From contig NW_027590172.1 of assembly GCF_964213995.1 (NCBI RefSeq), positions 806,001 through 870,000 of the forward strand: a stretch of 64,000 nucleotides of DNA, given 5' to 3'. Position 1 is the first letter of the stretch, and every line of letters begins with the position of its first letter. This DNA comes from Mustelus asterias (taxonomy: Eukaryota). This document shows positions 1 to 46,699 of the stretch, one piece after another. The position numbers and the translations under genes are program-made. The notes under the pieces are model-generated. The model saw only the letters and a list, made by a program, of their open reading frames with translations, was not told the origin of the DNA and did not search any database.

Positions 1-61
1 CACAACACCTCCAACCTTTGTGTCATCAGCAAACTTGCCAACCCATCCTTTCACTTCCTCA

Positions 62-937
62 TGGAATTGCGGATAGCGAAGAGCATTGTCGGGCAATACA
101 GCAGGATATAGATAGGCTGGAAAATTGGGCGGAGAGGTGGCAGATGGAATTTAATCCGGATAAATGCGAAGTGATGCATTTTGGAAGAAATAATGTAGGG
201 AGGAGTTATACAATAAATGGCAGAGTCATCAGGAGTATAGAAACACAGAGGGACCTAGGTGTGCAAGTCCACAAATCCTTGAAGGTGGCAACACAGGTGG
301 AGAAGGTGGTGAAGAAGGCATATGGTATGCTTGCCTTTATAGGACGGGGTATAGAGTATAAAAGCTGGAGTCTGATGATGCAGCTGTATAGAACGCTGGT
401 TAGGCCACATTTGGAGTACTGCGTCCAGTTCTGGACGCCGCACTACCAGAAGGACGTGGAGGCATTGGAGAGAGTGCAGAGAAGGTTTACCAGGATGTTG
501 CCTGGTATGGAGGGTCTTAGCTATGAGGAGAGATTGGGTAGACTGGGGTTGTTCTCCTTGGAAAGACAGAGAATGAGGGGAGATCTAATAGAGGTGTACA
601 AGATTATGAAGGGTATAGATAGGGTGAACAGTGGGAAGCTTTTTCCCAGGTCGGAGGTGACGATCACGAGGGGTCATGGGCTCAAGCTGAGAGGGGCGAA
701 GTATAACTCAGACATCAGAGGGACGTTTTTTACACAGAGGGTGGTGGGGGCCTGGAATGCGCTGCCAAGTAGGGTGGTGGAGGCAGGCACGCTGACATCG
801 TTTAAGACTTACCTGGATAGTCACATGAGCAGCCTGGGAATGGAGGGATACAAACGATTGGTCTAGTTGGACCAAGGAGCAGCACAGGCTTGGAGGGCCG
901 AAGGGCCTGTTTCCTGTGCTGTACTGTTCTTTGTTCA
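62..937 (+). mobile_element. CR1 LINE, 5'-truncated young copy (RT C-terminal region + 3' UTR)
   Basis: Open frame GIADSEEHC...QMEFNPDKCEVMHFG...RPHLEYCVQFW...GYKRLV; 3' hairpin ggccgaagggcc and ttctttgttc tail; near-identical to 32335-33542. Confidence 0.93.
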
Positions 938-1150
938 TCCAGGTCATTTATAAAAATCACAAAGAGTAAGGGTCCCAGAACAGATCCCTGGGGCACTCCA
1001 CTGGTGACCGACCTCCATGCAGAATATGACCCGTCTATAACCACTCTTTGCCTTCTGTGGGCAAGCCAGTTCTGGATCCACAAAGCAATGTCCCCTTGGA
1101 TCCCATGCCCCCTCACTTTCTCAATAAGCCTTGCATGGGGCACCTTATCA
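938..1150 (-). mobile_element. CR1 LINE RT fragment (inverted)
   Basis: [16 protein letters not shown]...[23 protein letters not shown] on minus strand. Confidence 0.88.
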
Positions 1151-3105
1151 AGTTTCCAGTTACTGAGAGAGACAAGAGATGAAATTGCTGGGCCTCTCAC
1201 AAAAATCTTTGTTTCTTCATTGGACACAGGTGAGGTCCCAGAGGATTGGAGGATAGCAAATGTGGTCCCGTTATTTAAGAAGGGTAGCAAGGATAACCCG
1301 GGTAATTATAGGCCAGTGAACTTGATGTCCGTGGTAGGGAAATTGTTGGAGAAGATTCTTAGAGATAGGATCTATACACATTTAGAACTGAATAATCTCA
1401 TTAGCGATAGACAACATGGTTTTGTACAAGGGAGGTCATGCCTCATAAATTTGGTTGAGTTTTTTGAGGAGGTGACAAAAATGACTGACGAGGGAAGGGC
1501 CGTGGATGTCGTCGACATGGATTTTAGTAAAGCGTTTGACAACGTCCCTCATGGAAGGCTGGTGCAAAAGGTTAAATCTCATGGGATCAAAGGTGAACCA
1601 GCTAGATGGGTACAGAACTGGCTTAGCCATAGAAGACAGAGGGTAGCAGTGGAGGGGTCTTTTTCTGATTGGAGGTCTGTGACTAGCGGTGTTCTACAGG
1701 GCTCTGTACTGGGACCTCTGCTGTTTGTGATATATATAAATGATTTGGAGGAAGATGTAGCTGGTGTGATCAGTAAGTTTGCGGACGACACAAAGATTGC
1801 TGGAGTTGTGGATTGTGATGAACATTGTCAGAGAATACAGCAGGATATAGATAGGCTGGAAAATTGGGTGGAGAAATGGCAGATGGAATTTAATCCAAAT
1901 AAATGTGAAGTGATGCATTTTGGTAGATCTAATGCAGGGGGGAGCTATACAATAAATGGCAGAACCATCAGGAGTATAGACACACAGAGGGATCTGGGTG
2001 TGCAAGTCCACGATCCTTAAAGGTGGCAGCACAGGTGGAAAAGGTGGTGAAGAAGGCATATGGCATGCTTGCCTTTATTGGGGCATAGAGTATAAAACGT
2101 CTGAGGATCGTGGGATTATATTCATTGGAGTTTAGGAGGTTGAGGGGAGATCTGATAGAAACTTACAAGATAATGAACGGCTTAGATAGGATGGACGTAG
2201 GGAAGTTGTTTCCATTAACAGGGGAGACTAGGACGCGGGGGCACAGCCTTAGAATAAAAGGGAGTCACTTTAGAACAGAGATGAGGAGAAATTTCTTCAG
2301 CCAGAGAGTGGTGGGTCTGTGGAATTCATTGCCACAGAGGGCTGTGGAGGCCGAGACGTTGAGCGTCTTCAAGACAGAAATTGATAAATTCTTGATTTCT
2401 CGAGGAATTAAGGGCTATGGGGAGAGAGCGGGTAAATGGAGTTGAAATCAACCATGATTGAATGGTGGAGTGGACTCGATGGGCCGAATGGCCTTACTTC
2501 CGCTCCTATGTCTTATGGTCTTATGGTCTAAAAGTTGGCACATGGTGTTGCAGTTATATGGAACGTTGGTTCGGCCGCATTTGGAATACTGTGTCCAGTT
2601 CTGGTCACCACACTACCAGAAGGACGCGGAGACTTTGGAGAGAGTACAGAAAAGGTTTACCAGGATGTTGCCTGGTATGGAGGGTATTAGCTATGAGGAG
2701 AGATTGAGTAAACTCGGGTTGTTCTCCCTGGAAAGACGGAGGTTGAGGGGCGACCTAATAGAAGTTTACAAAATTACGAAGGGCATAGATAGGGTGAACA
2801 GTTGGAAGCTTTTTTCCAGGTCAGCAATGACAAACACAAGGGGTCACAAGTTCAAGGTAAGGGGGGCAAGGTTCAATACAGATATGCGGGGGACGTATTT
2901 TACACAGAGGGTGGTGGGGGCCTGGAGTGCACTACCAAGCAAGGTGGTTGAGGCAGACACGCGAGAAACATTTAAGACTCATCTTGATAACCACATGAAC
3001 GACTAGGAATAGAGGGATACAAATGGATGGTCTAGTTGGGAACACATGATCAGCGCAGGCTTGGAGGGCCGAAGGGCCTGTTCCTGTGCTGTACTGTTCT
3101 TTGTG
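1151..3105 (+). mobile_element. CR1 LINE (RT domain), interrupted by a nested CR1 at 2098-2529
   Basis: PGNYRPVNL...DFSKAFD...QGSVLGP...KFADDTK; frame resumes at ~2530 (KSWHMVLQLY); 3' tail at ~3060-3105. Confidence 0.9.
2098..2529 (+). mobile_element. Nested 5'-truncated CR1 of another subfamily
   Basis: GLYSLEFRRLRGDLIETYK...GKWS*, tail (tcttatgg)n; inserted at tataaaa|gttggca of the host with short taaaa duplication. Confidence 0.85.
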
Positions 3106-3534
3106 CTTTAAAATAGACACATGAGTTTCCGGGCAGTCACAGGAATGTGGTCAAGATAGTCCAGTCCCACAATGCCTCACATTCAATCTGCAGTCCTTCA
3201 ATTATAACAGAATATGTGGCTGTATGGAGCTGCCTTGGCCGTGGTCAACCCCAACCCCAAGGGTGCCTTCCTGAACTGCTGCAATGCCTGAGGTGTACGT
3301 ACACCCACATTGCTGTTAGGAAGGGACTTCCAGCTACATATTCCAGACTTTCACTGGACTGTAGGTGAATATCAGATTGATATATTCCATTCAACCACAC
3401 CCAAGGTGTGTTATTCCAATTCCTTTATTGTCCAGGACAATACATTCACAATATCTTTCAAACAGAAATTAAACATTCCCATTTGATTTCAGACAGTAAC
3501 ATATTCTGTTAGTTTGTTCTTTATTGTCAATGTC

Positions 3535-3900
3535 AGGCTGGGGTTGTTTTCCTTGGAGCAAAGGAGGTTGAGGGGAGATTTGATAGATGGGGGACAAGAT
3601 TCTGACAGGTTTAGATAAGGTGGACAAAGAAAAGCTGTTCCCATTAGCTGATGGAACAAGGACGAGGGGGGACACAGATTTCTTGTTTTGGGTTAGAGAT
3701 GCAAGGGAGGGGGGAGTGGGGGGCTGGGGGGGGGGGGGGGGGGGCAGTGGGGTGGGGGGGGAATTGAGGGGGGAGATGTGAGGAAGAATATTCTGATGCA
3801 GTGAATGGTAATGACCTGAAACTCGCTGTCTATGAGGGTGGAGGAAGTGGAGACAATAAACAATTAAAAAGGAAATTGGATGGGCATTTGGGATGTTCCA
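3535..3900 (+). mobile_element. Old CR1 3' fragment with G-rich expansion (3706-3775)
   Basis: LGLFSLEQRRLRGDL...KEKLFPLADGTRTRG remnants. Confidence 0.65.
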
Positions 3901-3902
3901 AA

Positions 3903-4970
3903 CAGAACGAAGAACAAAGAAAATTACAGCACAGAAACAAGCCCTTTGGCCCTCCAAGCCTGCAGCAACCATGCTGCCCGTCTGAACTAAAACCCCCTAC
4001 CTTTCTGGGACCATATCCCTCTATTCCTATGCTATTCATATATTTGTCAAGACACATCTTAAAAGTCACTATCGTATCTGCTTCCACTACCTTCCCCGGC
4101 AACGAGTTCCAGGCACCCACCACCCTCTGTGTAAAAAACCTGCCTTGTACATCTCCTTTAAACCTTGCCCCTCGCACCTTAAACCTATGCCCCCCAGTAA
4201 CTGACTCTTCCACTCTGGGAAAAAGCTTCTGACTATCCACTCTGTCCATGCCCCTCATAATCTTGGAGACTTCTATCAGGTCTCCCCTCAACCTCCGTCA
4301 TTCCAGTGAGAACAGACCAGGTTTCTCCAAACTCTCCTCATAGCTAATGCCCTCCACACCAGGCAACATCCTGATAAATATTTTCCGTACCCTCTCCAAA
4401 GCCTCCACATTTTTCGGGTAGTGTGGTGACCAGAATTGAACACTAGATTCCAAGTGCGGTCAAACTAAGGTTCTATAAAGCTGCAACATGACTTGCCAAT
4501 TTTTAAACTCAATGCCCCGGCCGATGAAGGCAAGCATGCCATATGCTTTCTTGACTACCTTCTCCACCTGCATTACCACTTTCAATGACCTGTGTACCTG
4601 TACACCGAGATCCCTCTGCCTATGAATGCTCTTAAGGGTTCTGCCATTTACTGTATATTTCCATTCTGTATTAGACCTTCCAAAATGCATTACCTCACAT
4701 TTGTCCGGATGTAAACTTCATCTGCCATCTCTCCGCCCAATTCTCCAACTGCTCTATATCCTGCTGTATCCTTTGCCGTTCCCCATCGCTATCCGCAATT
4801 CCACCAACCTTTGTGTCGTCCACAAACTTACCAATCAAACCAGTTACATTTTCCTCCAAATCATTTATATATATTACAAACAGCAAAAGTCCCAGCACTG
4901 ATCCCTGCGGAATGTCACTTGTCACAGCCCTCCATTCAGAAAGGTACCTTTGCACTGCCAACCTCTGTTT
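3903..4970 (-). mobile_element. CR1 LINE, degraded
   Basis: PQGSVLG..., KFVDDTKVGG, RGDLIEV...; frameshifts; 3' tail at ~3905-3960. Confidence 0.88.
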
Positions 4971-5212
4971 TCTTCTGACTAAATATCTCTAAACTTCCTA
5001 ACACCCTGTCACTCTGTGATCCTTGTGACATTTGAAACCAGGTATTTGCAAAAAGACTCAAAGAGCATCAACCCACTGGAGGCTGAGACCAGCCAGTCCA
5101 GCACAAAGAAACCCTCTGACCCTTCCCATTGACCAACTGTGAGAATGAACAAAATGCAATCCTGGATGTAATTGAGAGCAGGAACAATAACAGCAGAATC
5201 CAACCTCTGGAA

Positions 5213-7318
5213 TCACTCGTGAACTTGCTGGTGCCTCAGCAGCCGGGATGAAACGCTGAAACCCTTCCCACACACAGAGCAGGTGAACGGCCTCTCCCCA
5301 GTGTGAACTCGCTCGTGCGTCTGCAGGTTGGATAACTGAGTGAATTCTTGCCCGCACTGAGAGCAGGTGAACGGCCTCTCCCCAGTGTGAACTCGCTGGT
5401 GTGTTTGCAGGTTGGAAAGCTGAGTGAATCCCTTCCCACACTGAGAGCAGGTGAACGGCCTCTCCCCTGTGTGAACTCGCTGGTGTGCCCGCAGGCTGGA
5501 TGACTGAGTGAATCCCTGCCCACACTGAGAGCAGGTGAATGGTTTCTCCCCTGTGTGAACCCGCTGGTGTGTCCGCAGGTCGGATGACCGAGTGAATCCC
5601 TTCCCACACTGAGAGCAGGTGAATGGTCTCTCCCCAGTGTGAACTCGCTGGTGTGTCTGCAGGCTGGATAACCGAGTGAATCCCTTCCCACACTGAGGGC
5701 AGGTGAACGGTCTCTCTCCAGTGTGAACCCGCTGGTGTGTCCGCAGATGGGTTGACCGAGTGAATCCCTTCCCACACTGAGAGCAGGTGAACGGCCTTTC
5801 CCCAGTGTGAACTCGCTGGTGTGTCTGCAGGCTGGATAACTGAGTGAATCCCTTCCCACACTGAGAGCAGGTGAACGGCCTCTCTCCAGTGTGAACTCGC
5901 TGGTGTCTCTGCAGGCTGGATAACTGAATGAATCCCTTCGCACACTGAGAGCAGGTGAATGGTCTCTCTCCGGTGTGAACTCGCTGATGTGTCTGCAAGT
6001 GGGATGACAGAGTGAATCCCTTCTCACATTGAGAGCAGGTGAACGGTCTCTCCCCAGTGTGAACTCGCTGATGTCTCTGCAGGTGGTATGACCGAGTGAA
6101 TCCCTTCGCACACTGAGAGCAGGTGAATGGGGGCTTCTCCCCAGTGTGAACTCGCTGGTGTGCCCGCAGGTCGGATGACCGAGTGAATCCCTTCCCACAC
6201 TGAGAGCAGGTGAACGGCCTCTCCCCAGTGTGAACTCGCTGGTGTGCCTGCAGGTTGGATAACTGATTGAATCCCTTCCCACACTGAGAGCAGGTGAACG
6301 GCCTCTCCCCAGTGTGAATTCGCTGGTGTGTCAGCAGGCTGGATGACCGAGTGAATCCCTCCCCACACTGAGAGCAAGTGAATGGCCTCTCCCCTGTATG
6401 AACTCGCTGGTGTGTCCGCAGCTCGGATAACTGAATGAATCCCTTCCCACACTGAGAGCAGGTGAATGGCCTCTCCCCAGTGTGAACTCGCTGGTGTCTC
6501 TGCAGGCTGGATAACTGAGTGAACCTCTTACCACACTGAGAGCAGGTAAATGGCCTCTCTCCAGTGTGAACTCGCTGGTGTCTCTGCAGGCGGGATGACT
6601 GAGTGAATCCATCCCCACACTGAGAGCAGGTGAACGGCCTCTCCCCAGTGTGAACTCGCTGGTGTATCTGCAGGCTGGATAAATGAGTGAATTCCTTCTC
6701 ACACTGAGAGCAAGTGAACGGCCTCTCTCCAGTGTGAACTCGCTGGTGTCTCTGCAGGTGGGATGACTGAGTGAATCCCTCCCCACATTGAGAACAGGTG
6801 AACGGCCTCTCTCCAGTGTGAACTCGCTGGTGTGACTGCAGGCGGGATGACCGAGTGAATCCCTCCCCACACTGAGAGCAGGTGAATGGCCTCTCCCCAG
6901 TGTGAACTCGCTGGTGTGTCTGCAGGCTGGATAAATAAGTGAATTCCTTCTCACACTGAGAGCAAGTGAACGGCCTCTCTCCAGTGTGAACTCGCTGGTG
7001 TCTCTGCAGGCTGGATATCCGAGTGAATCCCTTCCCACACTGAGAGCAGGTGAAGGGCCTCTCCCCAGTGTGAACTCGCTGGTGTCTCTGCAGGTGGGAT
7101 GACTGAGTGAATCCCTCCCCACATTGAGAGCAGGTGAACGGCCTCTCCCCAGTGTGAACTCGCTGGTGTCTCTGCAGGTTGGATAACTGACTGAATCCCT
7201 TCCCACATTGAGAGCAGATGAACGGCCTCTCCCCAGTGTGGCTGCGCCGATGAGCTTCCAGCTCTGATGGGGTTCCGTATCCCTTCCCACAGTCCGCACA
7301 TTTCCATGGTTTCGCCAT
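5213..7318 (-). CDS. C2H2 zinc-finger protein, 25 tandem fingers, no KRAB/SCAN/SET domain (ZNF-1)
   Basis: 701-aa ORF MAKPWKC...; 25 CxxC-x12-HxxxH units with TGERPF linkers; ATG in accATGg context; splice acceptor upstream at 7670/7671; conserved family 3' UTR follows. Confidence 0.93.
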
Positions 7319-7511
7319 GGTGCAGGTGTCCTTACCTCACTCTTGAGTGGACAATTAGTTGAAACTTCGTCCACACACAGAACAAGATTACAGTCTCCAC
7401 CTGCTGTGAATGGTGTGATATTTATTCAGACTGTGTAACTGGTGAAAGCTCTTTAGTCAGTGCATTGGAACACACTCACTCGAGTGTGGCAGTGTGTTGA
7501 CGCTTTTTCAC

Positions 7512-7559
7512 TCACACTGACATTTCAAATCTTTTCAAATCGACAGACTGGACAATCAT
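7512..7559 (-). promoter_or_regulatory. 15-codon uORF (MIVQSVDLKRFEMSV*) in ZNF-1 leader, derived from a decayed finger
   Basis: gaaATG...gtgTGA; same start, length and stop as uORFs at 30467-30514 and 39924-39971. Confidence 0.55.
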
Positions 7560-8104
7560 TTCTCCTTCTGGATTCAAAGTCCGATGATATTGAGGTCCCA
7601 AGGAATATGACTCTGTCAGATCTAGACGTGACGTTTGAGATTTCAGCCTGTGATTCCTCTTTCAATATCCTGGAAAATGAGTTTCCAAAAGTCATCAGTG
7701 TCAGTACAGGATAGAAATTCAGAACAGACAATTTCTATGGAACATTCTTTCCTCTCTCATTCAGAGGGTGGGTTCTCCCCCGCATATGCACAGCTTCCCC
7801 TCTCCCTCGCACATTTTGCAGTCCCGGGCGGGGGGAGGGGGAGATCACCGAGCGGCTTCTCGCTCTGGCCAGAGCCGTCAGCCGGTTGCCTGGAAACCTT
7901 GGCTCGATGTGGTGTAGGGGGAGGGGAACAATGGGTGGGGGCGGGGCTCCCGGGTCCGCACGCCCGGGCCTGCACCATGGAACCCGGAGACATCACCGCG
8001 GAGCGCAGTGATTTCTATTGGCTGATTCAGGCAGGGTTCTATCGTAGCGTCACAATGCGGAAGTTGTCCAATGAGCTTCAGAGTGAAATTTCGCTCTCCG
8101 ATCA

Positions 8105-8206
8105 CATTCCATTGTGACGTCACACACTCACCCATTCCATTGTGATGTCACACCCTCACCCATTCCATTGTGACCTCACACTCTCACCCATTCCATTGTG
8201 ACGTCA
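8105..8206. repeat. 28-bp tandem repeat x3.6 carrying CRE/ATF motifs
   Basis: Unit cattccattgtga(c/t)(g/c)tcacac(a/c/t)ctcacc; perfect TGACGTCA in units 1 and 4. Confidence 0.85.
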
Positions 8207-8494
8207 GGGCTTCACTCTCCGATCACAATCCCTGCCGGCCTCCCACATGCAGCCTCAATGGCGGCAGTCAGCCCGGGTCTAACACTACAAGCTGCCGCTC
8301 CATTTGGTACAAAGGGGGGGACCGGGAAGTTCATTTCCGGGGTCTGGGTTTGAACAACATGTTTACAAAGTCTCTCCACCCACTCGCCACATTTATCATT
8401 CCCCGCACGCCGCCCCCTACCTAGTATTGATCTCGCCTCCAAATTAAAACCGCCCGTCTACCCGTCGCCATTACCCGCACTGCGCATGCTTCAG

Positions 8495-8625
8495 GTCCCG
8501 CCCCTCATTCACTCTGATTGATTGGAGGACCAGCCGCTCCCGCTCGGTCCTCCAGTCCCGCCCCTCGTTCACTCCGATTGGTTGGAGGACCAGCCGCTCC
8601 CGCTCGGTCGGCCAGTCCCGCCCCC
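8495..8625. repeat. 60-bp tandem repeat x2.2 (GC box + CCAAT + inverted repeat)
   Basis: gtcccgcccctc.ttcactc.gattg.ttggaggaccagccgctcccgctcggtc..cca repeated at 60-nt spacing. Confidence 0.85.
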
Positions 8626-9112
8626 TCTTCCTATTGGTCCGGAGCTGCCGTCAATCAGTCCCCGGGCATTGTGATGTGGAGCATGCGCAGTGTCATTGCT
8701 GTCCTTGGCGCTTGTTTGTCCCGGAGAAGCGGAGTCAGCGTTAGGCGGTGGCTGGGAGGATTTGGAAACACTTTGTGGATCCGCAAACCCTTCAGAATCA
8801 TTGTCAGCTCCCTGGTTTGCAGCTGCGGGGCTTCTCCCTCCCTCCCTCCCGGGAACAGGCCCAGGTTAACGGCCCCATCCTGGCTCAGCCACTGGAGGAT
8901 GGTTCACATCAGAGGATGGGGGAGGGGGACAATAAATAAGAGGTTACACTTTGGCCTCAAATCAATGAGGACTCTGATCTCTGGGAAGGAAGGAAACCCT
9001 GGGAGGTGGGCGGGGAGGATTCACAAACACCCGCTGGAGGCCCCAACACCCCCAATAAGAGCCATTGGTTTTATTGTCAGTCTGCAGACAGGAGCTGAAG
9101 AACTGAACCCAG

Positions 9113-9396
9113 TAAGAAGTCTCACAACACCAGGTTAAAGTCCAACAGGTTTATTTGGTAGCAAAAGCCACTCGCTTTCGGATCACTGCTCCTTCATCAG
9201 GTGAGTCGGACTTGTGTTCATAAACGGGGCATATATATTGACACAAACTCAATTTACAAGATAATGGTTGGAATGTGAGTCTTTACAGGCAATCAAGTCT
9301 TAAAGGTACAGACAATGTGAGTGGAGAGAGGGTTAAGCACAGGTTAAAGAGATGTGTACTGTCTCCAGCCAGGACAGTTAGTGAGATTTCCACATC
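9113..9396 (-). mobile_element. Penelope-like element terminal (pLTR) fragment with 15-bp TSD
   Basis: Family sequence agtaagaagtctcacaacaccaggttaaagtcc...; TSD aagaactgaacccag at 9098-9112 and 9397-9411; empty site present in paralog at ~29945. Confidence 0.85.
9168..9206 (-). ncRNA. Minimal hammerhead ribozyme motif (degenerate copy)
   Basis: cac CTGATGA a ggagcagtgatcc GAAA gcg a gtg; stem II and U16.1 mutated. Confidence 0.5.
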
Positions 9397-10005
9397 AAGA
9401 ACTGAACCCAGACAGAGGAGAGGGAGGGGGAAAACTGGGAGTGGAGGGAAGAAATGGTGGAGATGTTGAGATGGGTTTGGATTTCAGTCCAGGGGAGGAG
9501 GTAGAGTGTGTGGGACGGGGATTTATAGATTTGGGGGAACAAGAGAGGAAAATATGTTCCAGAGAAACTATGAATTGTCTGTTCAGAATTTCTATCCTGC
9601 ACTGACAGTGATGGTATTTGTAAACTGTTTTTGCAGGGTATTATGAAGCAGGATTTACAGATGTGAAACTCAAACCAAACTTCACATCAAGATCTGTTTC
9701 AGTGATTTGATTCATCAGAAACTGAATATCATCAGCCTTTGTCTACAGAAGGAGAAATGTTCATTCTGTCTGCGGGCAAAGATTTCAAACATCAGTGTGA
9801 CTGAAAAAGCACCTAGACACACAAACACACCTGAGAGTTTCCAATGTGCTGAATGTGGAAAGTGGTTTAACAAGTCTGAAAAATAATCACATCATTCTAA
9901 CTGAGTAGTGACCCGACACACATTCTGTGTAAACGAGGCTTCAACTCATCATCCAACCTGGAGTCACATGAGGACACCCGCACCACAGAGAAACCACTGA
10001 AATGT

Positions 10006-11211
10006 GTGGACTGTGGGAGGGGATTCAATTACCCGTCCGAATTGGATATTCATCATCGCATTCACACTGGAGAGAGGCCGTTCACCTGCTCTGAGTGTGG
10101 GAAAGGATTTGCTTACTCATCCAGCCTCTATACACACCGGCGTGTTCACACTGGTGAGAGGCCATTCACCTGCCTCGAATGTGGGAGGAGATGTCATGCT
10201 TTATCAAGCCTCCTGATTCACCGGCAGGTTCACTCCGATCAGAGACTGTTTCAGTGTTCTGATTGTGAGAAAAGCTTTAAAAGCACAAAGGACCTCCTGA
10301 GACACCAGCGCACTCACATGGCGGTGAGACCGTTCACCTGCTCAGTGTGTGGGAAGGGATTCACTCAGTCATCCCACCTTCTGACACACCAACTTGTTCA
10401 CACTGATCAGAGACCATTTCAATGTTCTGACTGTGAGAAGAGATTTAAAAGTAAAAATGATTTACAAGTCCATCAGCGCACTCACACTGGGGAGAAGCCA
10501 TTCACCTGCTCCGTGTGTGAGAGGAGATTCGGACGTTTATCCCAGCTGCAAACACACCAGCAAGTTCACTCTGATAAGAGACCGTTTCAGTGTTCTGACT
10601 GTGAGAAGAGCTTTAAAAGTAAACAGGATTTGGTGACACACCAGCGAGTTCACACTGGGGAGAAACCGTTCACCTGCTCGGTGTGTGGGATGGGATTCAC
10701 CCATTCATCCCGCCGTCTGAGACACCAGCGAGTTCACACCGGGAAGAAGACATTTATTTGCTCTGTGTGTGGGAAGGGATTCACTGATTCGCCCCACCTT
10801 CTGATACACGAGCGAATTCACACTGGGGAGAAACCCTTCGCTTGCTCCACATGTGGGAAACGATTCACTCAGCCACCCCAGCTCATTGCACATCAACTGG
10901 TCCACACTGATCAGAGACCTTTTAAGTGTTCTGACTGTGAGAAAAGTTTTAAAAGCACGAAGGACCTGCTGAGACACCAGCAAATTCACACTGGGGAGAG
11001 ATCATTCACCTGCTCCATGTGTGGGAAAAGGTTCACTCAGTCATCCCACCTGCTGAGACACCAGCAGGTTCACACAGGAGAGAGATCGTTCACCTGCTCC
11101 GTATGTGGGAAGAGATTTGCTCGGTCAGCCAATCTGCTGAGACACCAGCAAGTTCACAAGTCACTGCAGGGATTGGATTCTGCTGTTGCTGCTAACCCCA
11201 TGCAGGACTGA
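10006..11211 (+). CDS. C2H2 zinc-finger protein, 14 fingers (ZNF-2); family ATG replaced by ACA, start uncertain
   Basis: Frame open from 9901 to 11211 without ATG until 10318; 14 fingers; family stop TGA changed to TCA (11161) extending C-terminus SLQGLDSAVAANPMQD. Confidence 0.78.
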   Translation: MDCGRGFNYPSELDIHHRIHTGERPFTCSECGKGFAYSSSLYTHRRVHTGERPFTCLECGRRCHALSSLLIHRQVHSDQRLFQCSDCEKSFKSTKDLLRHQRTHMAVRPFTCSVCGKGFTQSSHLLTHQLVHTDQRPFQCSDCEKRFKSKNDLQVHQRTHTGEKPFTCSVCERRFGRLSQLQTHQQVHSDKRPFQCSDCEKSFKSKQDLVTHQRVHTGEKPFTCSVCGMGFTHSSRRLRHQRVHTGKKTFICSVCGKGFTDSPHLLIHERIHTGEKPFACSTCGKRFTQPPQLIAHQLVHTDQRPFKCSDCEKSFKSTKDLLRHQQIHTGERSFTCSMCGKRFTQSSHLLRHQQVHTGERSFTCSVCGKRFARSANLLRHQQVHKSLQGLDSAVAANPMQD

Positions 11212-16778: not shown

Positions 16779-17993
16779 TCAGCAGGTGGGATGACTGAGT
16801 GAATCCCTTTGTGAATCCTTGTGAACTCGCTGGTGTGTCTGCAGGTGGGATGACTGAATGAATCCCTTTCCACACTCAGAGCAGATAAACGGCCTCTCTC
16901 CAGTGTGAACTTGCTGGTGACTCTGCAGATAAGACGAAAGAGCGAATCCTTTCCCACACTCAGAGCAGGTGAATGGTCTCTCCCTGGTGTGAACACGTCG
17001 GTGTGCCTGCAGGTGAGCTGAACGAGTGAATCCCTTCCCACACTCAGAGCAGGTGAACGGCCTCTCCCCGGTGTGAACTTGCTGGTGATTCTGCAGGTCG
17101 GATAACTGAATGAATCCCCTGCCACACTCGGAACAGGTGAATGGCCTCTCCCTGGTGTGAACCTCCTGATGTGACACTAGGTGGGATGATTGAATAAAAC
17201 GCCTCCCACACTCGGAGCAGACGAATGGCCTCTCCCTGCTGTGAACCCCCTGGTGTGACATTAGGTGTGACGATTGGATAAAACGTTTCCCACATTCGGG
17301 GCAGCTGAATGGCCTCTCCCTTGTGTGTGTTCCTTTGTGTGTCACTAGGTGTGATAACTGAATAAAATGCTTCCCACACTCGGAGCAGGGGAACGGCCTC
17401 TCCCTCCTGTGGACTCCCTGGTGAGTCACTAGGTGTGATAATTGAATAAAACACTTCCCACACTCAGAGCAGTTGAAAAGCCTCTCCTTAGTGTGGGCTC
17501 GCTGGTGTATCTGCAGGTGAGATGACTGAGTGAAACCCTTTCCACAGTCGGAGCAGGTGAATGGTCGCTCTCCGGTGTGGATTTGTTGGTGATTCAAAAG
17601 TTCAGATGAATGATTGAATTGCTTCCCACACTCAGAGCAGTTGAACGGTTTCTCCCCAGTGTGAATTTGCTGGTGTGTCAGCAGGTGGGATAACTGAGTG
17701 AATCCCTTCCCACACTCAGAGCAGGTGTATGGCCTCTCCCTACTGTGAACTGCTTGGTGATTCCACAGGTCGGCTGCCTGGAGAAAACCCTTCCCACACT
17801 CGGAGCAGATGAAGGGCCTCTCCCCAGTGTGGCTGCATTGATGAATCTTCAGGGCAGATGGGGAGCAGTCTCCTTCCCCACACTTGGAGCAGGGGAACAG
17901 TCTCTCCCCAGTGCGAATATGTTGATGAGTTTGCAGTGCAGACGGGATACGGAATTCCTTACCACAATCCTCATCTTTCCCCGGTTTCTCCAT
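16779..17993 (-). CDS. C2H2 zinc-finger protein, 13 intact fingers + 1 degenerate (ZNF-3); last finger frameshifted
   Basis: MEKPGK... ATG at 17993 in accATGg; junction near 16812 shifts frame; conserved 3' UTR at 16590-16760. Confidence 0.82.
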
Positions 17994-19439
17994 GGTGTGG
18001 ATGTCCTTGTGTCTTTCCAGGTTTAACAATCAGTTAAATCCTCATCCACACAGAGAGCATGTGTACTGTCTGTCCCCGCTGTAAATGATGTGATATTTTT
18101 GCAGTCTGTGTCACTGGTCTTTTGAGAGTCAGTGTACTGGACACTCTCACTCAGGTCTGTGTTCCTTGGTGCCTTTCCAGTCACACTGATGTGACAGAAA
18201 AAACAGATAAATATTTCTTCTTCTCGATTCAAAGTCTGACGATATTCAGGTTCTGATAATTTGAGTGACTCTATTAAGCCTTAACATGTTTTGAGATTGC
18301 TGGCAGCAAATCTTCCCCTTATAACTTCCTGTAAAATGAGTTTACAAAAGTCATCACTGTCAGTATCAAACAGAAATTCAGAATAGACAATTCTAGTTTC
18401 TGTGGAACATTTCTTCCTTTCTCGTTCCTCTGGATCTGTACATCTCCATCCCACACCCTATCCCTGTATCCTCACTCTGCTGTATGTATAATACACCCTT
18501 CCAATTCTCCTGAAGGTGTTGATTCATGCTGATCAACAAATCCATGCTCAGTCCTTCTTCTCCAGCACTGAGATATCTTCATGCAGGCTGCTAGTCTAAA
18601 TACCTAAATATACTTAGCGAAGTAAAATGTATGTAACATAGGGGACCAGTTTAATAATTAGAAGTACAGCAAGGCTATGAGATAGAACATTTCAACAGTG
18701 AACGTTCTTGAATATCAATTTTTTGGCTATGAGGGTGGTGCATTTTGATACATTCAATATTTCAAAATGAAATTAGATGGGCAGTCAAAATAGACTGGCA
18801 GGGGAACAGGGATACAGACGGGATGAGGAGCATATCAGCCATGATTGAATGGCGGAGTGGACTCGATGGGCCAAATAGCCTAATTATGCTCCTATATCTT
18901 ATGAACTTAAGGGGGAATGGGACTGACTGGATTGCTCTACAGAGAGTTAGCATGGACTTGAGTTGCTGAATCGACTCTTTGTGTGATACAATAACCCGAT
19001 TACTGAAAATAAACTACTTAGTTACAGTATTAACAAAACTAAAAATAATAAAAAATGAACTTTATTACTGGACCATGCATAATATATCTAATTTGTACCA
19101 TATTACAAGACTGCACACATCTCTGTCCTATATTAATTTACTGCCCCTTAAATTTCAGCTATTTCCTCGGGAAATCATCCCTTTAAATTGTGAACATTAG
19201 GAAAGAGACCATCCTCTTAACCAGACAAATAAATGTGACAAGTTGAGGAAGCAAAGGATGTCAATGTCTTTAAGAGGGAGAGAGATACCTGGGCCAACCT
19301 TTCCAGAGTCTGCAGCTCCCTGAATTCACTTCCTTTCCCTTCAGTTGCTGCAAGTCCCCAATTTAACCCCAGAATGAGAAAAAAAAGGAGAGAAGAAAAC
19401 AAAGTGTTTTACTGACAGATGTTGACGACAGGAGGAGGT

Positions 19440-23377: not shown

Positions 23378-24400
<1,023 letters not shown>

Positions 24401-25592
24401 TCAGTTCCAATAATTTGGGCAACTTTGTCAGATCCCGATATGATGTTTGGTTTCCGGTTTCCCTGTTGCAAAACCACCCCTTCTAAGACCCTGTCACTGT
24501 CAAGTGAATTTAAAACAGAAAAAAAAGTGAGAGAATCCACAAAACACAAAGGCAGGTTGTGAAATTGAGCTGAATAAATATGGCAATTTTTGGGGCTGGC
24601 ACGAGGAAAAAGTGAGCATGGAAACTGCTGGATTGTTAATAACCCAACTGGTTCATTAATAACCTTCAGGGAAGGGAAGCTGACCCCCATCTGAGCCGAG
24701 ACAAGATTATGACCTCTATGAGGGGAGAAGAGGGAGAGAGGATTGGAAGCAGAAGAAGAGAAAGAGAGTGATTTTCTATTTGTACAAATCAACCAGGATT
24801 TTAACAGAATCTCGCAAACCCTCAACCATCATGTCCGAGAAGGAGCAGTTACCAAGTGTATGTGAACACTATCACCTCCGGGTTCTCCTCCAAGGCGCAC
24901 ACAGTTCTGACAGTAAGTAATGGATGAGCAGAAATTTCCTCTACTTCAATATTGGGAAGACTGATGCTACTGTCTTCAGCCCCAGCTACAAACTCCACTC
25001 TTGAGCCACTGACTCCATCCCTCTCCCTGATAACTGTTTGAGTCTGAAGCAGATTGTTCAAACCATTGTGTGATATCTGACCCCAAGACAAGCTCCCAAA
25101 CACATTTTTGCATCATCTTCAAGACTGAATTCCACCTCAGTAACATTTCCTGACTCCACCCCAGACTCAGCTCATCTGCTGCTGAAACACTGACCCATTC
25201 CTTTGTTACCTCTGAGATATCTACACTCCTCTAATTCTGACTTCCTGAGTATTCCTGATTTTATTTACTCCATGTTGTGTGGCCTCGTCTGAAGCTGCCA
25301 AGACCACAAATTCTGGAATTTCCTCCCTAACCCTCACTCTCTTACATTCCTTCATTAAAACACTCCTTAAAACTGACCTCTGCTTCCGGTAGCCCGTGAG
25401 TTTACAAAAGCAATCACCATCAGTCCCAGATAAAAATTCAAACGAGACAATTCTTTTCTCTTGGTATGAGTTTTCTCTGTTAAATCTTCCTCATCTCGCC
25501 CCCTGTAAAAGGAATTTCCAAAATCCAACTCTGTCAGTCCAGGATAGAAATTCGCAACATTCTCTCCTCCTGCTGCCTGGTCCAGGATGTCC

Positions 25593-26124: not shown

Positions 26125-27320
26125 GATGACAGAAGCCAGAGGGTAGTTGTAGAAAGTTGTTGTTCAAACTGGAGAACTGTGACCAGCGATGTGCCTTAGG
26201 GATTGGTGCTGGGTCCACTGTTACTTGTCATTTACATTAATGATTTGGATTAGAAATAAGGAGGCTTGGTTAGTAAGTTTGCGGATGACACCAAGATTGG
26301 TGGCATAGTGGACAGTGAAGAAGGTTATCTCCGATTGCAACAGGATCTTATCAATTGGGCCAGTGGGCTGACGAATGGCAGATGCAGTTTAATTTAGACA
26401 AATGCGAGGTGATGCATTTTGGTAGATTGAACCAGGGCAGGATTTACTGAGTTAATGGTAGGGCATTGGGGAGAGTTATGGAACATAGAGATCTCGGGGT
26501 ACATGTTCATAGCTCCTTGAAAGTGGAGTCACAGGTGGACAGAGTGGTGAAAAAGGCATTCAACATGCCTGGTTTCATTGGTCAGAACATTGAATGCAGG
26601 AGTTGGGACGTCTGTTGAAGTTGTACAAGACATTGGTAAGGCCACACTTGGAATGCTGTGTACAGTTCTGGTCACTCTATTATAGAAAGGATATTATTAA
26701 ACTAGAAAGACTGCAGAAGAGATTTACTAGGATGCTACCGGGACTTGATGGGTTGAGTTCTAATGAGAGGCTTGATGGACTGGGACTTTTTTCTCTGGAG
26801 CGTAGAAGGCTGAGGGGTGATCTTATAGAGGTCTATAAAATAATGAGGGGCACAGATCAGGCAGAAAGTCAATATCTTTTCCCAAAGACAGGGGAGTCTA
26901 AAAGTAGAGCACACAGGTTTAAGATGAGAGTGGAGGGATACAAAAGGGTACAGAGGGGCAGTTTCTTTCACACAGAGGGCGGTGAGTGTCTGGAACAAGC
27001 TGCCAGAGGTATTAGTAGAGGCGGGTACAATTTTGTCTTTTAAAAAGCGATTAGACAGTTACATGGGTAAAATGGGTACAGAGGGATCTGGGCCAAATGC
27101 GGGCAATTGGGACTAGCTTCGGGGTTTAAAAAAAGGGCAGCATGGACAAGTTGGGCCGAATGGCCTGTTTCCATGCTGTCAACCTCTATGATTCTGTGGA
27201 CACAGAGGGATTTGGGCCAAACATGGGCAATAGGGACTAGCTTAGTGGTTTCAAAAAAAGGGGGCAGCATGGACAAGTTGGGCTGAAGGGCTATGCTGTA
27301 AACCTCTGTGACTCTGTGAC
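26125..27320 (+). mobile_element. CR1 LINE, degraded, with duplicated 3' tail
   Basis: SKFADDTKIGG, RPHLECCVQFW; two copies of 3' UTR (27080-27195, 27200-27320). Confidence 0.82.
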
Positions 27321-29249: not shown

Positions 29250-29620
29250 ATATAAATACTGATTTTGTAATGCGCTTCTCCATTGGGAATTCGAACCGAA
29301 TACGAATGTTTAAACTGTCCATCATCAACCTGAGTCATCAATGCCGGCGGGTTTACCCAGCGTCCCCCGCGCTGTAGAATGTCCTCTATCAGTGAGTGCA
29401 GGTGCGCAGGCGCAGTGTGCACTCTGACCATGCTCAGTGTCAGTCATGGTACCAGGGAAGGTTCGGGAGGAGACAGCGAGCACAGGGTCGGAATGGAAAC
29501 CGCGGCACCAACTTCTGGCCCAGGCCGCAGGCCCCGGCTTTACTGCGGGGACAGGCCCAGGGGGGGGGGGGAGCGCTGGAGCCGGCGGCTGGACACTGGG
29601 GAGGATTTGGAAACACTTTG
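29250..29620. promoter_or_regulatory. CpG-rich promoter of ZNF-5
   Basis: NRF1-like tgcgcaggcgca (29403), GC-rich, followed by exon/intron cassette nearly identical to 8752-9110. Confidence 0.7.
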
Positions 29621-30127
29621 TGGATCCGCAAACCCTTCAGAATCATTGTCAGCTCCCTGGTTTGCAGCTGCGGGGTTTCTCCCTCCCTCCCTCCCGGGAA
29701 CAGGCCCAGGTTAACGGCCCCATCCTGGCTCAGCCACTGGAGGATGGTTCACATCAGAGGATGGGGGAGGGGGACAATAAATAAGAGGTTACACTTTGGC
29801 CTCAAATCAATGAGGACTCGGATCTCTGGGAAGGAAGGAAACCCTGGGAGGTGGGCGGGGAGGATTCACAAACACCCGCTGGAGGCCCCAACACCTCCAA
29901 TAAGACCCATTGGTTTTACTGTCAGTCAGCAGACAGGAGCTGGAGAACTGAACCCAGACAGAGGAGAGGGAGGGAGAAAACTGGGAGTGGAGGAAAGAAA
30001 TGGTGAGATGGGTTTGGATTTCAGCCCAGGGAGGAGGGAGAATGTGTGGGACGGGGATTTACAGATTTGGGGGAATGAGAGAGGAAAAAAAGTTCCAGAG
30101 AAACTAGAATTGTCTGTTCAGAATTTC

Positions 30128-30327
30128 ATAGAAATCATAGAAACCCTACAGTACAGAAAGAGGCCATTCGGCCCATTGAGTCTGCACCGACCACAATCCC
30201 ACCCAGGCCCTACCCCCAAATCCCTACATATTTACCCACTAATCCCTCTAAACTACACATCTCAGGACACGAAGGGCAATTTTTTTTTTTGCATGGCCAA
30301 TCAACCTAACCCGCACATCTTTGGACT
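30128..30327 (-). mobile_element. 5'-truncated SINE (HE1-like) in ZNF-5 intron
   Basis: CR1-type tail (atttctatg)n; gaatttc duplicated on both sides. Confidence 0.75.
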
Positions 30328-30711
30328 GAATTTCTATCTCGATTGACTGTGACGATTTTTGTTAACTCCTTTTACAGGTGAGGTGAGGAAACATCACATA
30401 AAAATCAGACTGAGTATCGATTTATTAGGACCTGAATATCCTGAGACTTTGAATGTGGAAGGAGAAATGTTTGTCTGTTCTGCCTGGAGGAGAAGATTTC
30501 AAACATCAGTGTGACTGGAAAAGCACTGAGACACACACACACCCGAGTGAGAGTGTTCCAGTGAACTGACTGTGGAAAAAGCTTAAACCAGTTACACAGC
30601 CTGAAAAAACATCACACCATTCACAGCTGGGAGAAACTGTACATATGTTCTGTGTGTGGACAAGACTTCAACTGATCATCCAACCTGGAGAGACACAAGG
30701 ACACTGGCACT

Positions 30712-31236
30712 ATGGAGAAACCTTGGAAATGTGGGAAGGGATTCAATTATCCTTCCCATCTCGAAACTCATCGTCGCAGTCACACAGGAGAGAGACCGTT
30801 CATCTGCTGTGTGTGTGGAAAAGGTTTTGTTCAGTCACAACACCTGCAGTCACACCAACGCTCTCATTCCAATAAGAGACATTTAAAATGTTCCAACTGT
30901 GAGAAGAGCTTTAAGAGCAAAAAGCACTTGAAACAACACCAACACACACACACTGGAGAGAGGCCATTCATCTGCTCTGTGTGTGGGAAGGGATTCACTC
31001 AGTCAGCCACCCTGATGAGACACCAGCAGACTCACACAGGAAAAAGGCCGTTCACCTGCTCAGTGTGTGGGAAAGGATTCATTCAGTCATCCACTCTGCT
31101 GAGGCATCAGCGAGTTCACACTGGGGAGAGGCCGTTCCCTTGCTCCAAGTGTGGGAAGGAATTCACTCGGTTAGACACTCTCAGTTTGCATCAACATGTT
31201 CACACTGAAAAATTACTTTTTAAACATTACGAATGA
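30712..31236 (+). CDS. C2H2 zinc-finger protein, 5 intact fingers, first finger deleted (ZNF-5; possibly decaying)
   Basis: [11 protein letters not shown]...; premature TGA with further decayed fingers to ~31350. Confidence 0.65.
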   Translation: MEKPWKCGKGFNYPSHLETHRRSHTGERPFICCVCGKGFVQSQHLQSHQRSHSNKRHLKCSNCEKSFKSKKHLKQHQHTHTGERPFICSVCGKGFTQSATLMRHQQTHTGKRPFTCSVCGKGFIQSSTLLRHQRVHTGERPFPCSKCGKEFTRLDTLSLHQHVHTEKLLFKHYE

Positions 31237-31815: not shown

Positions 31816-33762
31816 ATTTAACAGGAGCCTGCAGGCTGATGAGTCAGTGTCACACGGTCAGTGTGTTCCTGTGCCGCTCTGTATTTAACAGGAGCCTGCA
31901 GGCTGATGAGACTGTGTTACACTGTCAGTGTGTTCCTGTGCCGCTCTGTATTTAACAGGAGCCTGCAGGCTGATGAGACTGTGTTACACTGTCAGTGTGT
32001 TCCTGTGCCGCTCTGTATTTAACAGGAGCCTGCAGGCTGATGAGTCAGTGTCACACGGTCAGTGTGTTCCTGTGCCGCTCTGTATTTAACAGGAGCCTGC
32101 AGGCTGATGAGACTGTGTTACATTGTCAGTGTGTTCCTGTGCAGCTCTATTTAACAGGAGCCTGCAGGCTGATGAGACTGTGTTACACTGTCAGTGTGTT
32201 CCTGCACTTCTCTGTTTTTAACAAGAGCCTGCAGGCCTCTGAAACAGTGTTAACTGTCAGTGTGCTGATGTACTGCTCTGTACTTAACAGTAGCCTGCAG
32301 ACTAATGAGACTCTTACACTGTCAGTGTGCTGCTAGAACAACAAAGAACAGTTCAGCACAGGAAACAGGCCCTTCGGCCCTCCAAGCCTGTGCCGCTCCT
32401 TGGTCCAACTAGACCAATCGTTTGTATCCCTCCATTCCCAGGCTGCTCATGTGACTATCCAGGTAAGTCTTAAACGATGTCAGCGTGCCTGCCTCCACCA
32501 CCCTACTTGGCAGCGCATTCCAGGCCCCCACCACCCTCTGTGTAAAAAATGTCCCTCTGATGTCTGAGTGATACCTCGCCCCTCTCACCTTGAGCCCATG
32601 ACCCCTCGTGATCGTCACCTCCGACCTGGGAAAAAGCTTCCCACTGTTCACCCTATCTATACCCTTCATAATCTTGTATACCTCTATTAGATCTCCCCTC
32701 ATTCTCCGTCTTTCCAAGGAGAACAACCCCAGTCTACCCAATCTCTCCTCATAGCTTAGACCCTCCATACCAGGCAACATCCTGGTAAACTTTCTCTGCA
32801 CTCTCTCCAATGCCTCCACGTCCTTCTGGTAGTGCGGCGACCAGAACTGGACGCAGTACTCCAAATGTGGCCTAACCAGCGTTCTATACAGCTGCATCAT
32901 CAGACTCCAGCTTTTATACTCTATACCCCGTCCTATAAAGGCAAGCATACCATATGCCTTCTTCACCACCTTCTCCACCTGTGTTGCCACCTTCAAGGAT
33001 TTGTGGACTTGCACACCTAGGTCCCTCTGTGTTTCTATACTCCTGATGACTCTGCCATTTATTGTATAACTCCTCCCTACATTATTTCTTCCAAAATGCA
33101 TCACTTCGCATTTATCCGGATTAAACTCCATCTGCCACCTCTCCGCCCAATTTTCCAGCCTATCTATATCCTGCTGTATTGCCCGACAATGCTCTTCGCT
33201 ATCCGCAATTCCAGTCATCTTTATGTCATCCGCAAACTTGCTGATTACACCAGTTACACCTTCTTCCAAATCATTTATATATATCACAAATAGCAGAGGT
33301 CCCAGTACAGAGCCCTGCGGAACACCACTGGTCACAGACCTCCAGCCGGAAAAAGACCCTTCGACCACTACCCTCTGTCTCCTATGGCCAAGCCAGTTCT
33401 CCACCCATCTTGCCACTTCTCCTTGTATCCCATGAGCCTTAACCTTCTTAACCAACCTGCCATGTGGGACTTTGTCAAATGCCTTACTGAAATCCATATA
33501 GACGACATCCACGGCCCTTCCTTCATCAACCGTTTTTGTCACTGATGTACTGCTGTACTGCTCTGTATTTAACAGGAGCCTGTAGGCTTATGAGGCTGTG
33601 TTACACTGTCAGTGTGTTCCTGTACTGCTCTGTATTTAACAGGAGCCTGCAGGCTTATGAGGCTGTGTTACACTGTCAGTGTGTTCCTGTACTGCTCTGT
33701 ATTTAACAGGAGCCTGCAGGCTGATGAGGCTCTTATACGGTCAGTGTGCTCCTGTACTGTGG
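31816..33762. repeat. 67-bp minisatellite (~8 units, then CR1, then ~3 units)
   Basis: gtattt recurs at 31881, 31948, 32015, 32082; unit contains palindrome AGCCTGCAGGCT. Confidence 0.92.
32335..33542 (-). mobile_element. Young CR1 LINE (open 377-aa RT frame) inserted in the minisatellite
   Basis: DFSKAFDKVPH...PQGSVLGP...KFADD...GYKRLV uninterrupted; 3' tail at 32335-32400. Confidence 0.93.
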
Positions 33763-36464: not shown

Positions 36465-37109
36465 GATTCAATTATTAATTTGTCTCTCCAGGTTGGATGA
36501 TCAGTTGGAGCCTCACACAGAACACATGTACATTTCTCCGCACTGTGAATGGTATGATGTTTTTTCAGGCTGTGTAACTGGTTAAAGCTCTTTCCACAGT
36601 CAGTTCACTGGAACACTCTCACTCAGGTGAGTGTGTGTCTCAGTGCTTTTTCAGTCACACTGACGTTTAAAATCTTTCCCCACAGATAGAACAAACATTT
36701 CTCCTTCCACATTCAGAAGTCGATGATATTCAGGTCCTGATGAATCAAGTGACTGTCAGATTTTGACATGATGTTTGTTCTGACTTTCCCATCTGGAACT
36801 TCTCTCCCTCGAACTCCCTGCAAAAGGAGTTTACAGAAGTTATCAGTGTAAGTACAGGACAGAAATTCAGAGCTAACAATTCTGTGCCCCACACACGCTT
36901 TTCGCTCTCTGCTCATTGCTCCAGATTGAGTTTCTAGTCTTCTCCTGATTCTTTTCTTCTCTCCAGATTCTCTCCCCTCCTGTCCTCAAACTGGTGACAC
37001 TGGCTGTGGATCAATCCCACTCCGTCACTCTCATTCTAACAAATAATGCAGCTCACAACAATTTAACGAAGGGTCATCTGGACTCAAAACGTTGGCTCTT
37101 TTCTCTCTG

Positions 37110-46695: not shown

Positions 46696-46699
46696 TGTA

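What the first reader, a model, noticed from the sequence alone, without database searches (positions are those of the whole stretch)
5213..7318. 25-finger array with a PRDM9-like pattern: frozen scaffold, variable DNA-contact residues
Seen: fingers 2-24 almost all share [21 protein letters not shown] even at synonymous sites (an 84-bp minisatellite), while helix positions -1/+3/+6 vary ([42 protein letters not shown]). Neighbouring paralogs are far less homogeneous. Established: this pattern characterises PRDM9 and fast-evolving TE-binding ZNFs. No KRAB, SSXRD or SET exon is visible. Inference: a concertedly evolving, specificity-shuffling DNA binder with no effector domain.
Basis: partly seen in the sequence, partly recalled or inferred. 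Interest (0 to 1): 0.7.

Follow-up and report, generated by a model that had tools for sequence, protein, structure and literature searches.

The report
Finger-shuffling shark zinc-finger gene family
This is not PRDM9 but one of dozens of recently copied shark-type genes made only of DNA-reading zinc fingers, whose near-identical finger units are gained, lost and likely swapped much faster than in the neighbouring gene, probably yielding a changing set of DNA binders whose targets (likely mobile DNA) are untested.

Summary
In detail: an intact 701-aa gene of 25 C2H2 fingers, 88% alike at the DNA level, with 40% of amino-acid diversity at -1/+3/+6. None of 66 unrelated arrays sampled from the genome scores as high. 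It is not PRDM9: the real PRDM9-like genes (KRAB, SET, a different finger scaffold) sit in a tandem cluster on another contig. The gene is multi-copy (36 copies read, 5-28 fingers), and its scaffold is shared by a young subfamily rather than private to this array. Best control: in 40 co-amplified head-to-head units the partner gene keeps 12-15 fingers in order, while this slot holds 11 array types with 4-27 fingers. Between copies, most changes reuse letters already present in other fingers, as gene conversion would. Contact residues change at the synonymous rate (ratio 1.07), so recent positive selection is not shown; older diversification is suggested (pN/pS 1.8, interval includes 1). The pattern is about half as strong as in this genome's PRDM9. 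Targets and expression are untested. The scan noted the same pattern before on other DNA of this genome (e1-9197277). Verdict: a new variant of the known fast-evolving zinc-finger families.

The parts
5213..7318 (-). CDS of the finger-only ZNF: MAKP + 25 C2H2 fingers + stop (701 aa)
5288..7222 (-). Fingers 2-24: 84-bp coding minisatellite on the subfamily scaffold; one 87-bp unit (finger 14, extra Pro)
7223..7306 (-). Finger 1 (WKCADC..TPSELEA), divergent cap finger typical of the subfamily
5213..5287 (-). Finger 25 (VSSRLLR) ending HE-stop; terminal cap finger shared by most subfamily genes
7319..7669 (-). Inferred 5' untranslated part of the finger exon: decayed finger remnants with stops in all frames, three upstream ATGs (7559, 7523, 7465); inferred splice acceptor AG at 7671-7670
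   Evidence: intact versions of these N-terminal fingers in L155, L156, L160, L188; splicing is inferred
7980..8700 (.). GC-rich inferred bidirectional promoter shared with the partner gene: CCAAT boxes, 28-bp tandem with TGACGTCA (8105-8206, copy number varies among paralogs), 60-bp tandem (8495-8624)
   Evidence: promoter function is inferred and motif names are recalled
9901..11211 (+). Head-to-head partner ZNF (14 heterogeneous fingers), co-amplified with the focal gene; the internal control

Best explanation
This is one copy of a young, multi-copy subfamily of finger-only C2H2 genes whose near-identical 84-bp finger units are gained, lost and likely exchanged by unequal crossover and gene conversion, producing a turning-over set of proteins predicted to read different DNA sequences, likely repeats or mobile elements. 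Shown: the intact finger-only ORF, the many copies, finger-number variation, a scaffold shared across genes, purifying selection on zinc ligands and scaffold, and arrays that no longer line up finger for finger between genes whose flanks differ by only 3-6%. Inferred: recombination between look-alike fingers is the engine; helix variants were favoured over the longer term and are now reshuffled at about the neutral rate; the protein binds DNA and acts without its own effector domain, by occupying sites or recruiting partners through its fingers. That its targets are transposons is an analogy with KRAB-ZNFs and FiNZ-ZNFs only.
For: Copies: 24 places at 97% identity or more over 421 bp; 36 copies read carry 5-28 fingers. 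31 of 36 pass the frame test; L011 also has a 1-bp deletion in finger 1, so 30 of 36 are intact. Slot control: in all 40 top hits of the partner gene, the partner has 12-15 fingers (14 in 27 of 40). 34 of 40 have a slot gene, in 11 array types of 4-27 fingers. Among 10 slot types (45 pairs): 6.4 finger indels and 90% of aligned fingers changed at contact residues, against 0.2 and 14% for the partner. Conversion signal in 34 copies: synonymous variants are 1.81 times the flank expectation; the excess is in letters already present in other fingers (2.49 times) and not in private ones (1.15 times). 90 of 210 site pairs in the focal array show all four gametes. Constraint: non-synonymous/synonymous ratio 0.06 for core residues, 0.31 for the scaffold. 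Older diversification: contact pN/pS 1.8 within the array and 1.65-4.8 in 9 subfamily arrays; contact variants reach 10% frequency in 7 of 27 cases against 3 of 58 synonymous, p=0.01; 128 fingers from 12 lineages give 63 contact combinations.
Against: No excess of contact changes among paralogs: 1.07 (0.77-1.46) for all variants, 0.94 (0.49-1.73) for private ones. The codon bootstrap for within-array pN/pS spans 1 (0.94-3.24). In one search only one of four frequency thresholds is significant for contacts (p=0.53, 1, 0.08, 0.01). Fingers are not independent. The slot control is imperfect: slot-gene flanks are about 6% apart and partner arrays about 2% apart, and units have recombined, so the two genes do not share one clock. 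9 of the 15 closest copies have the same 25-finger layout, including a possible second haplotype (L002/L211). +2 is Ser in 119 of 128 fingers and the helix alphabet is small. No target, binding or gene-level expression evidence was obtained. Three upstream ATGs may limit translation.
Confidence: 0.55

Rival explanations
1. Neutral churn: the genes are redundant passengers of a segmental amplification that also carries Ig heavy-chain clusters. A homogeneous minisatellite is unstable by itself; contact residues are merely relaxed while zinc ligands and linkers stay constrained, so there is no selected repertoire.
For: Contact non-synonymous rate equals the synonymous rate among 34 copies. The partner gene and IgH constant exons are amplified too (40 hits each, the scoring limit). 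6 of 36 copies are broken. Several common helix variants are CpG-type transitions.
Against: Contact codon positions 1-2 are more heterozygous than four-fold sites (0.34 vs 0.15, p=0.02 focal; 0.37 vs 0.13, p=0.005 in 12 subfamily arrays). The frequency excess survives mutation-type weighting (6-fold). Core residues are under strong constraint (0.06).
Confidence: 0.3
2. The proteins regulate their own amplified region (ZNF promoters, IgH clusters or local satellites) rather than transposons.
For: Copies lie on the same contigs as IgH constant exons. KRAB-ZNFs often target satellites, promoters and other ZNFs (PMC10547256 Discussion).
Against: Proximity is explained by co-amplification. Zebrafish chr4 ZNFs are likewise interspersed with NLR genes, which the authors put down to local duplication (10.1101/027151 passages). 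No binding data.
Confidence: 0.1
3. A PRDM9 paralog or detached PRDM9 finger exon that directs or competes for recombination hotspots.
For: Minisatellite-like array with diversity concentrated in the helix.
Against: PRDM9-like genes are on C20: 8 strong SET-exon hits whose best PDB match is PRDM9 (5e-22), and all 6 KRAB hits in the genome. Their scaffold is only 68% identical to this one. There is no room or hit for KRAB/SET upstream.
Confidence: 0.03
4. Assembly artefact (collapsed or expanded repeat).
For: The array is repetitive, and some small contigs may be haplotigs, so copy number is uncertain.
Against: The same 25-finger order recurs on many contigs with distinct flanks and private variants; no two fingers in the array are identical; the frame is intact.
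Confidence: 0.02

Closest known systems
FiNZ-ZNF family of cyprinids and KRAB-ZNF clusters of tetrapods (PMC10547256; abstract, Results part 1 of 3, sections 7 and 10 read; supplements not seen)
   Same: Lineage-specific, clustered, recently duplicated tandem C2H2 genes with variable base-contacting residues.
   Different: No FiNZ-, KRAB- or other coding exon found upstream. The fingers share one DNA-level scaffold across genes, and arrays lose finger-for-finger correspondence within 3-6% flank divergence. Positive selection is not shown here among recent paralogs. Repression and TE targets are untested.
PRDM9 (PMC5519329; passages, section 10 part 1 of 2 and section 25 read; supplements not seen)
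   Same: Coding minisatellite with finger gain, loss and conversion-like change; helix-concentrated diversity (0.39-0.43, inside the 0.33-1.0 range that Table 1 lists for complete orthologs).
   Different: No KRAB, SSXRD or SET; separate locus and scaffold. Homogeneity is family-wide rather than array-specific. No identical fingers. The statistic is about half that of this genome's PRDM9 arrays. Diversity is spread over many loci instead of alleles of one locus.
Zebrafish chromosome 4 multi-Zn-finger genes interspersed with NLR-B30.2 genes (10.1101/027151; 12 of 21 passages seen)
   Same: Finger-only C2H2 genes co-duplicated among a large immune gene family in a conversion-prone region.
   Different: Here the immune neighbours are IgH clusters. 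In the passages seen, conversion was analysed for the NLRs, not the ZNFs.
Annotated elasmobranch 'zinc finger protein 271/721-like' genes (P0013, P0015, P0017, P0040, P0050)
   Same: Finger-only architecture starting at M(E/A)KPWKC-like sequences. The C-terminal array of Mustelus asterias P0015 has the same scaffold and helices such as QLSNLRT and RLSSLQT.
   Different: The Heterodontus proteins are less homogeneous. No ortholog with this finger order was among the 120 hits listed (of 1762).

Membership tests
PRDM9 | PR/SET domain upstream of the array | tested here: not met
   None of 43 PF21549 hits lies on C140; no hit in 11 upstream ORFs
PRDM9 | KRAB domain | tested here: not met
   All 6 PF01352 hits in the genome are in the C20 PRDM9 cluster
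PRDM9 | SSXRD motif | tested here: inconclusive
   PF09514 gave 0 hits genome-wide, also at the C20 cluster, so the search lacks power
PRDM9 | Top-ranked share of diversity at DNA-contact residues | tested here: inconclusive
   8th of 123 distinct sampled arrays and above all 66 background arrays, but below 4 of 5 PRDM9 arrays; the sample is not random or genome-wide
PRDM9 | Array-specific homogenisation of fingers | tested here: not met
   Within 0.915 vs 0.90-0.94 between subfamily genes; PRDM9 0.979 within vs 0.68 to this family
PRDM9 | Allelic hypervariability, meiotic expression, hotspot binding | not testable with these tools
   No individual-level reads obtained; RNA contigs uninformative
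KRAB-/FiNZ-type TE-repressing ZNF | N-terminal effector exon (KRAB or FiNZ) | tested here: not met
   No KRAB; no Pfam hit over cut-off upstream; the region upstream of the ATG has stops in all frames. No FiNZ profile was searched
KRAB-/FiNZ-type TE-repressing ZNF | Clustered, lineage-specific tandem C2H2 expansion | tested here: met
KRAB-/FiNZ-type TE-repressing ZNF | Positive selection at base-contacting residues | tested here: inconclusive
   1.07 among paralogs; 1.8 within the array, codon interval 0.94-3.24; frequency excess p=0.01 at one of four thresholds
KRAB-/FiNZ-type TE-repressing ZNF | Binds and represses transposable elements | not testable with these tools
   No recognition-code predictor, TE annotation or binding data
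Finger-only tandem C2H2 cluster genes of elasmobranchs | Single finger exon, TGE[RK]P linkers, intact Cys/His, no effector | tested here: met

The most novel reading that the evidence does not exclude
A germline combinatorial library of DNA readers: a large set of effector-less genes keeps one interchangeable finger scaffold so that fingers and half-fingers recombine within and between genes. This gives PRDM9-like turnover at the scale of a gene family, selected to track new mobile elements and co-amplified with the IgH clusters.
Probability: 0.17. Interest if true: 0.75.

Novelty: new variant of a known kind. Interest (0 to 1): 0.42.

Why it matters
In this genome the only KRAB hits are in PRDM9-like genes, so how its very many finger-only genes evolve and act is open. 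This locus gives a natural experiment: a stable and an unstable array on one promoter, copied at least 40 times. That makes the rate of finger shuffling and its effect on specificity directly measurable. It also shows that a PRDM9-like diversity score can arise in non-PRDM9 genes and need not mean ongoing positive selection.

Tried and rejected
RNA evidence: no RNA holder on record was listed. Four guessed-RNA contig runs laid at 85% likeness only showed generic finger matches from other organisms and cannot show expression of this gene. Array variation between individuals was not obtained. The SSXRD search was blank genome-wide. The protein homolog search returned mostly long generic ZNFs and no finger-order ortholog among 120 listed. 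Motif prediction and CR1/PLE enrichment were not run: no recognition-code tool or TE annotation was on hand, and recalled rules are too crude for a 25-finger array. Structure prediction was not run, as the fold is not in doubt. Finger similarity does not decay with distance along the array (rho 0.01, p=0.82), so simple neighbour duplication does not describe this copy. Rows dropped: L081 and L100 from the paralog variant counts (uncertain alignment; 34 of 36 used); first and last fingers from 'internal' statistics; 17 duplicate arrays (140 to 123); 6 of 40 units without a scorable slot gene. One search used unmatched flank sets for its O/E table and is superseded there. Literature searches listed no paper on shark ZNF array turnover; only open-licence PMC and bioRxiv are covered, and most hits were seen as listings only.

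Full report
Observation. Window 5213-7318 (-) is a stop-free ORF of 701 aa: four residues, 25 C2H2 fingers and a stop. Fingers 2-24 form an 84-bp repeat (23.6 copies, 88% matches). With the statistic of Baker et al. (PMC5519329, section 25), the share of amino-acid heterozygosity is 0.40 at -1/3/6 and 0.43 at -1/2/3/6 for fingers 2-24, and 0.36/0.39 with finger 1. The sections I read do not list which positions that paper counts, so the comparison with its table is approximate. Six neighbouring arrays score 0.21-0.25. Of 123 distinct arrays sampled from the genome, the focal one ranks 8th. Above it are four PRDM9 arrays, two of its own copies and one subfamily gene. None of 66 background arrays reaches 0.39. 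The sample is not random: 50 loci were picked for likeness to this gene, others from a family search and from tiles of C140 and C71. The scaffold is not literally frozen: synonymous diversity among fingers is 0.18 (0.48-0.54 in four C8 arrays), and +1, +5 and the hairpin loop vary too.

Setting. The window is G000:C140 of a 3.68-Gb genome. Retroelement ORF fragments (named CR1 from recall), Ig C1-set exons at 60.4-62.9 kb and elasmobranch best-identity protein hits point to a shark. The finger exon has an inferred acceptor at 7669. Its 5' part holds decayed fingers with stops in all frames and three upstream ATGs. About 350 bp further lies a GC-rich, CCAAT-containing region shared head-to-head with a 14-finger gene on the other strand. 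Eleven upstream ORFs gave no Pfam hit over cut-off. The gene is therefore read as finger-only; no transcript confirms this.

Not PRDM9. A PR-domain search found a tandem cluster at C20:1.36-1.72 Mb with 8 strong copies of one SET exon, whose best PDB matches are the three PRDM9 entries (5e-22). All 6 KRAB hits in the genome are in that cluster. Its arrays use a YKCTDCGRSFT scaffold, 0.979 identical within an array and 0.68 to the focal one, with an internal contact share of 0.56-0.85 (4 arrays). The focal pattern is about half as strong.

A multi-copy gene in a young subfamily. A 421-bp piece of the array matches 24 places at 97% or more (only 40 candidates scored, and some small contigs may be haplotigs). 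36 copies carry 5-28 fingers; 30 are intact. Six of the 15 closest copies (under 0.5% apart) have whole-finger gains or losses; nine keep the 25-finger layout. The quoted helix RSYHLQR is a private change of this copy and L002. Genes whose 5' and 3' flanks are only 3-6% from the focal gene (L082, L086, L088, L095, L096, L097, L185) have arrays of different length and order. Scaffold identity within the focal array (0.915) is no higher than to these and related genes (0.90-0.94), so the homogeneity belongs to the subfamily. It makes up 3 of 18 arrays in evenly spaced tiles of C140 and 2 of 14 in C71 tiles, the latter partly placed on ZNF hits. Mustelus protein P0015 has the same scaffold.

Internal control. 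The partner gene has 40 top hits at 98-100%, and I read all 40 units. The partner keeps 12-15 fingers in the same order (14 in 27 of 40). In 34 of 40 units the opposite slot holds a subfamily gene, in 11 array types of 4-27 fingers. Across 45 pairs of 10 types, the slot genes differ by 6.4 finger indels and in 90% of aligned fingers at contact residues; the partners differ by 0.2 and 14%. Caveat: slot flanks are about 6% apart and partner arrays about 2%, and units have recombined, so part of the contrast is time. At about 2% flank divergence, contact changes (2 of 12, 6 of 25) are close to the partner's level; finger gain and loss is the clear difference.

Mechanism of change. In 34 copies, variants at matched fingers were compared with the rate and spectrum of 580 bp of flank. 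Synonymous variants are 1.81 times the expectation. The excess lies in letters already present in other fingers (94 observed, 37.8 expected), not in private letters (44, 38.3). 119 of 139 multiply changed fingers have two or more differences matching one donor finger (no null was computed for this count), and 90 of 210 site pairs in the focal array show four gametes. This fits conversion and unequal crossover. Variants are unpolarised, chimeric fingers count as shared, and recurrent mutation can contribute. Exchange between genes, as opposed to within a gene, is not demonstrated.

Selection. Relative to synonymous change: core Cys/His/Phe/Leu 0.06, scaffold 0.31, hairpin loop 0.60, +1/+5 0.86, contacts 1.07 (0.77-1.46), private contact changes 0.94. 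The protein is constrained, but recent positive selection is not shown. Older diversification is suggested: contact pN/pS among fingers is 1.8 (finger bootstrap 1.4-2.5; codon bootstrap 0.94-3.24); contact positions are more heterozygous than four-fold sites (p=0.02 focal, p=0.005 subfamily); and 7 of 27 contact variants against 3 of 58 synonymous ones reach 10% frequency (p=0.01, one of four thresholds). Baker et al. warn that dN/dS among converted fingers violates tree assumptions.

How it likely works. Shown: anatomy, copy number, array turnover, constraint. Inferred: a shared DNA scaffold lets fingers misalign and exchange, reshuffling a small alphabet of helix residues (63 contact combinations in 128 fingers) into new arrays across many loci. 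Predicted from established C2H2 knowledge: sequence-specific DNA binding. By analogy with KRAB- and FiNZ-ZNFs (PMC10547256) the targets are likely repeats or transposons, with action by occupancy or finger-mediated partner binding. The main rival is neutral churn of redundant copies (0.3).

Known and new. Fast-evolving clustered ZNF families, PRDM9-type minisatellite turnover and finger-only genes interspersed with immune genes (10.1101/027151) are all described. Table 1 of PMC5519329 shows non-PRDM9 genes can outrank PRDM9 (salmon ranks 9 and 11 of 510). Nine literature searches listed nothing on family-wide finger shuffling in sharks; coverage is limited and supplements were not seen. The scan's note e1-9197277 reported the same pattern, weaker than PRDM9, on other DNA of this genome; it is not independent support. 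My data differ from its summary in finding no excess of contact change between recent copies. Verdict: real, not PRDM9, a new variant of a known kind; interest 0.42.

Noticed in passing
G000:C20:1.36-1.73 Mb (L034-L041, L061-L079, L231-L236): Tandem cluster of PRDM9-like genes: 8 strong SET-exon copies, 6 KRAB exons and several homogenised finger arrays that differ between copies. No SSXRD hit. A multi-copy PRDM9 cluster in a shark may deserve its own look.
   Followed up: partly
window 60429-62908 (-): Three Ig heavy-chain constant (C1-set) exons; one has at least 40 copies at 98-100% on the same set of contigs as the ZNF copies.
   Followed up: partly
window 8105-8206 and 8495-8624: 28-bp tandem carrying TGACGTCA (CRE-like, recalled) with variable copy number among paralog promoters, and a 60-bp tandem with CCAAT/GC-box-like motifs.
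   Followed up: partly
L211-L230 vs window 8500-11200: Units whose slot gene is about 0.1% from the window have partner arrays about 2% apart, implying recombination between amplified units near the shared promoter.
   Followed up: partly
window 5150-5212 (-); L016-L185 tails: The sequence after the stop still reads like a C-terminal tail (xQGLDSAVI...) that is translated in the partner gene (SLQGLDSAVAANPMQD) but cut off by HE-stop in this subfamily.
   Followed up: no
window 1-4800, 26594-27043, 32409-33587, 46413-47626: Fragments of reverse-transcriptase-type retroelement ORFs, mostly broken (family names recalled, not tested).
   Followed up: no
window 16779-18029, 23401-24828, 30676-31236, 35573-36467, 40042-40908, 49315-50184: Further ZNF genes and pseudogenes of the cluster with heterogeneous arrays; 29334-30346 repeats the promoter/exon-1 type sequence of 8518-9138.
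   Followed up: partly
window 31816-32329 and 33553-33759: 67-bp tandem repeat on both sides of a retroelement fragment.
   Followed up: no
G000:C8:33-41 Mb: A second large ZNF cluster with a different scaffold (FxCEVCxKxF) and older, more diverged arrays.
   Followed up: partly
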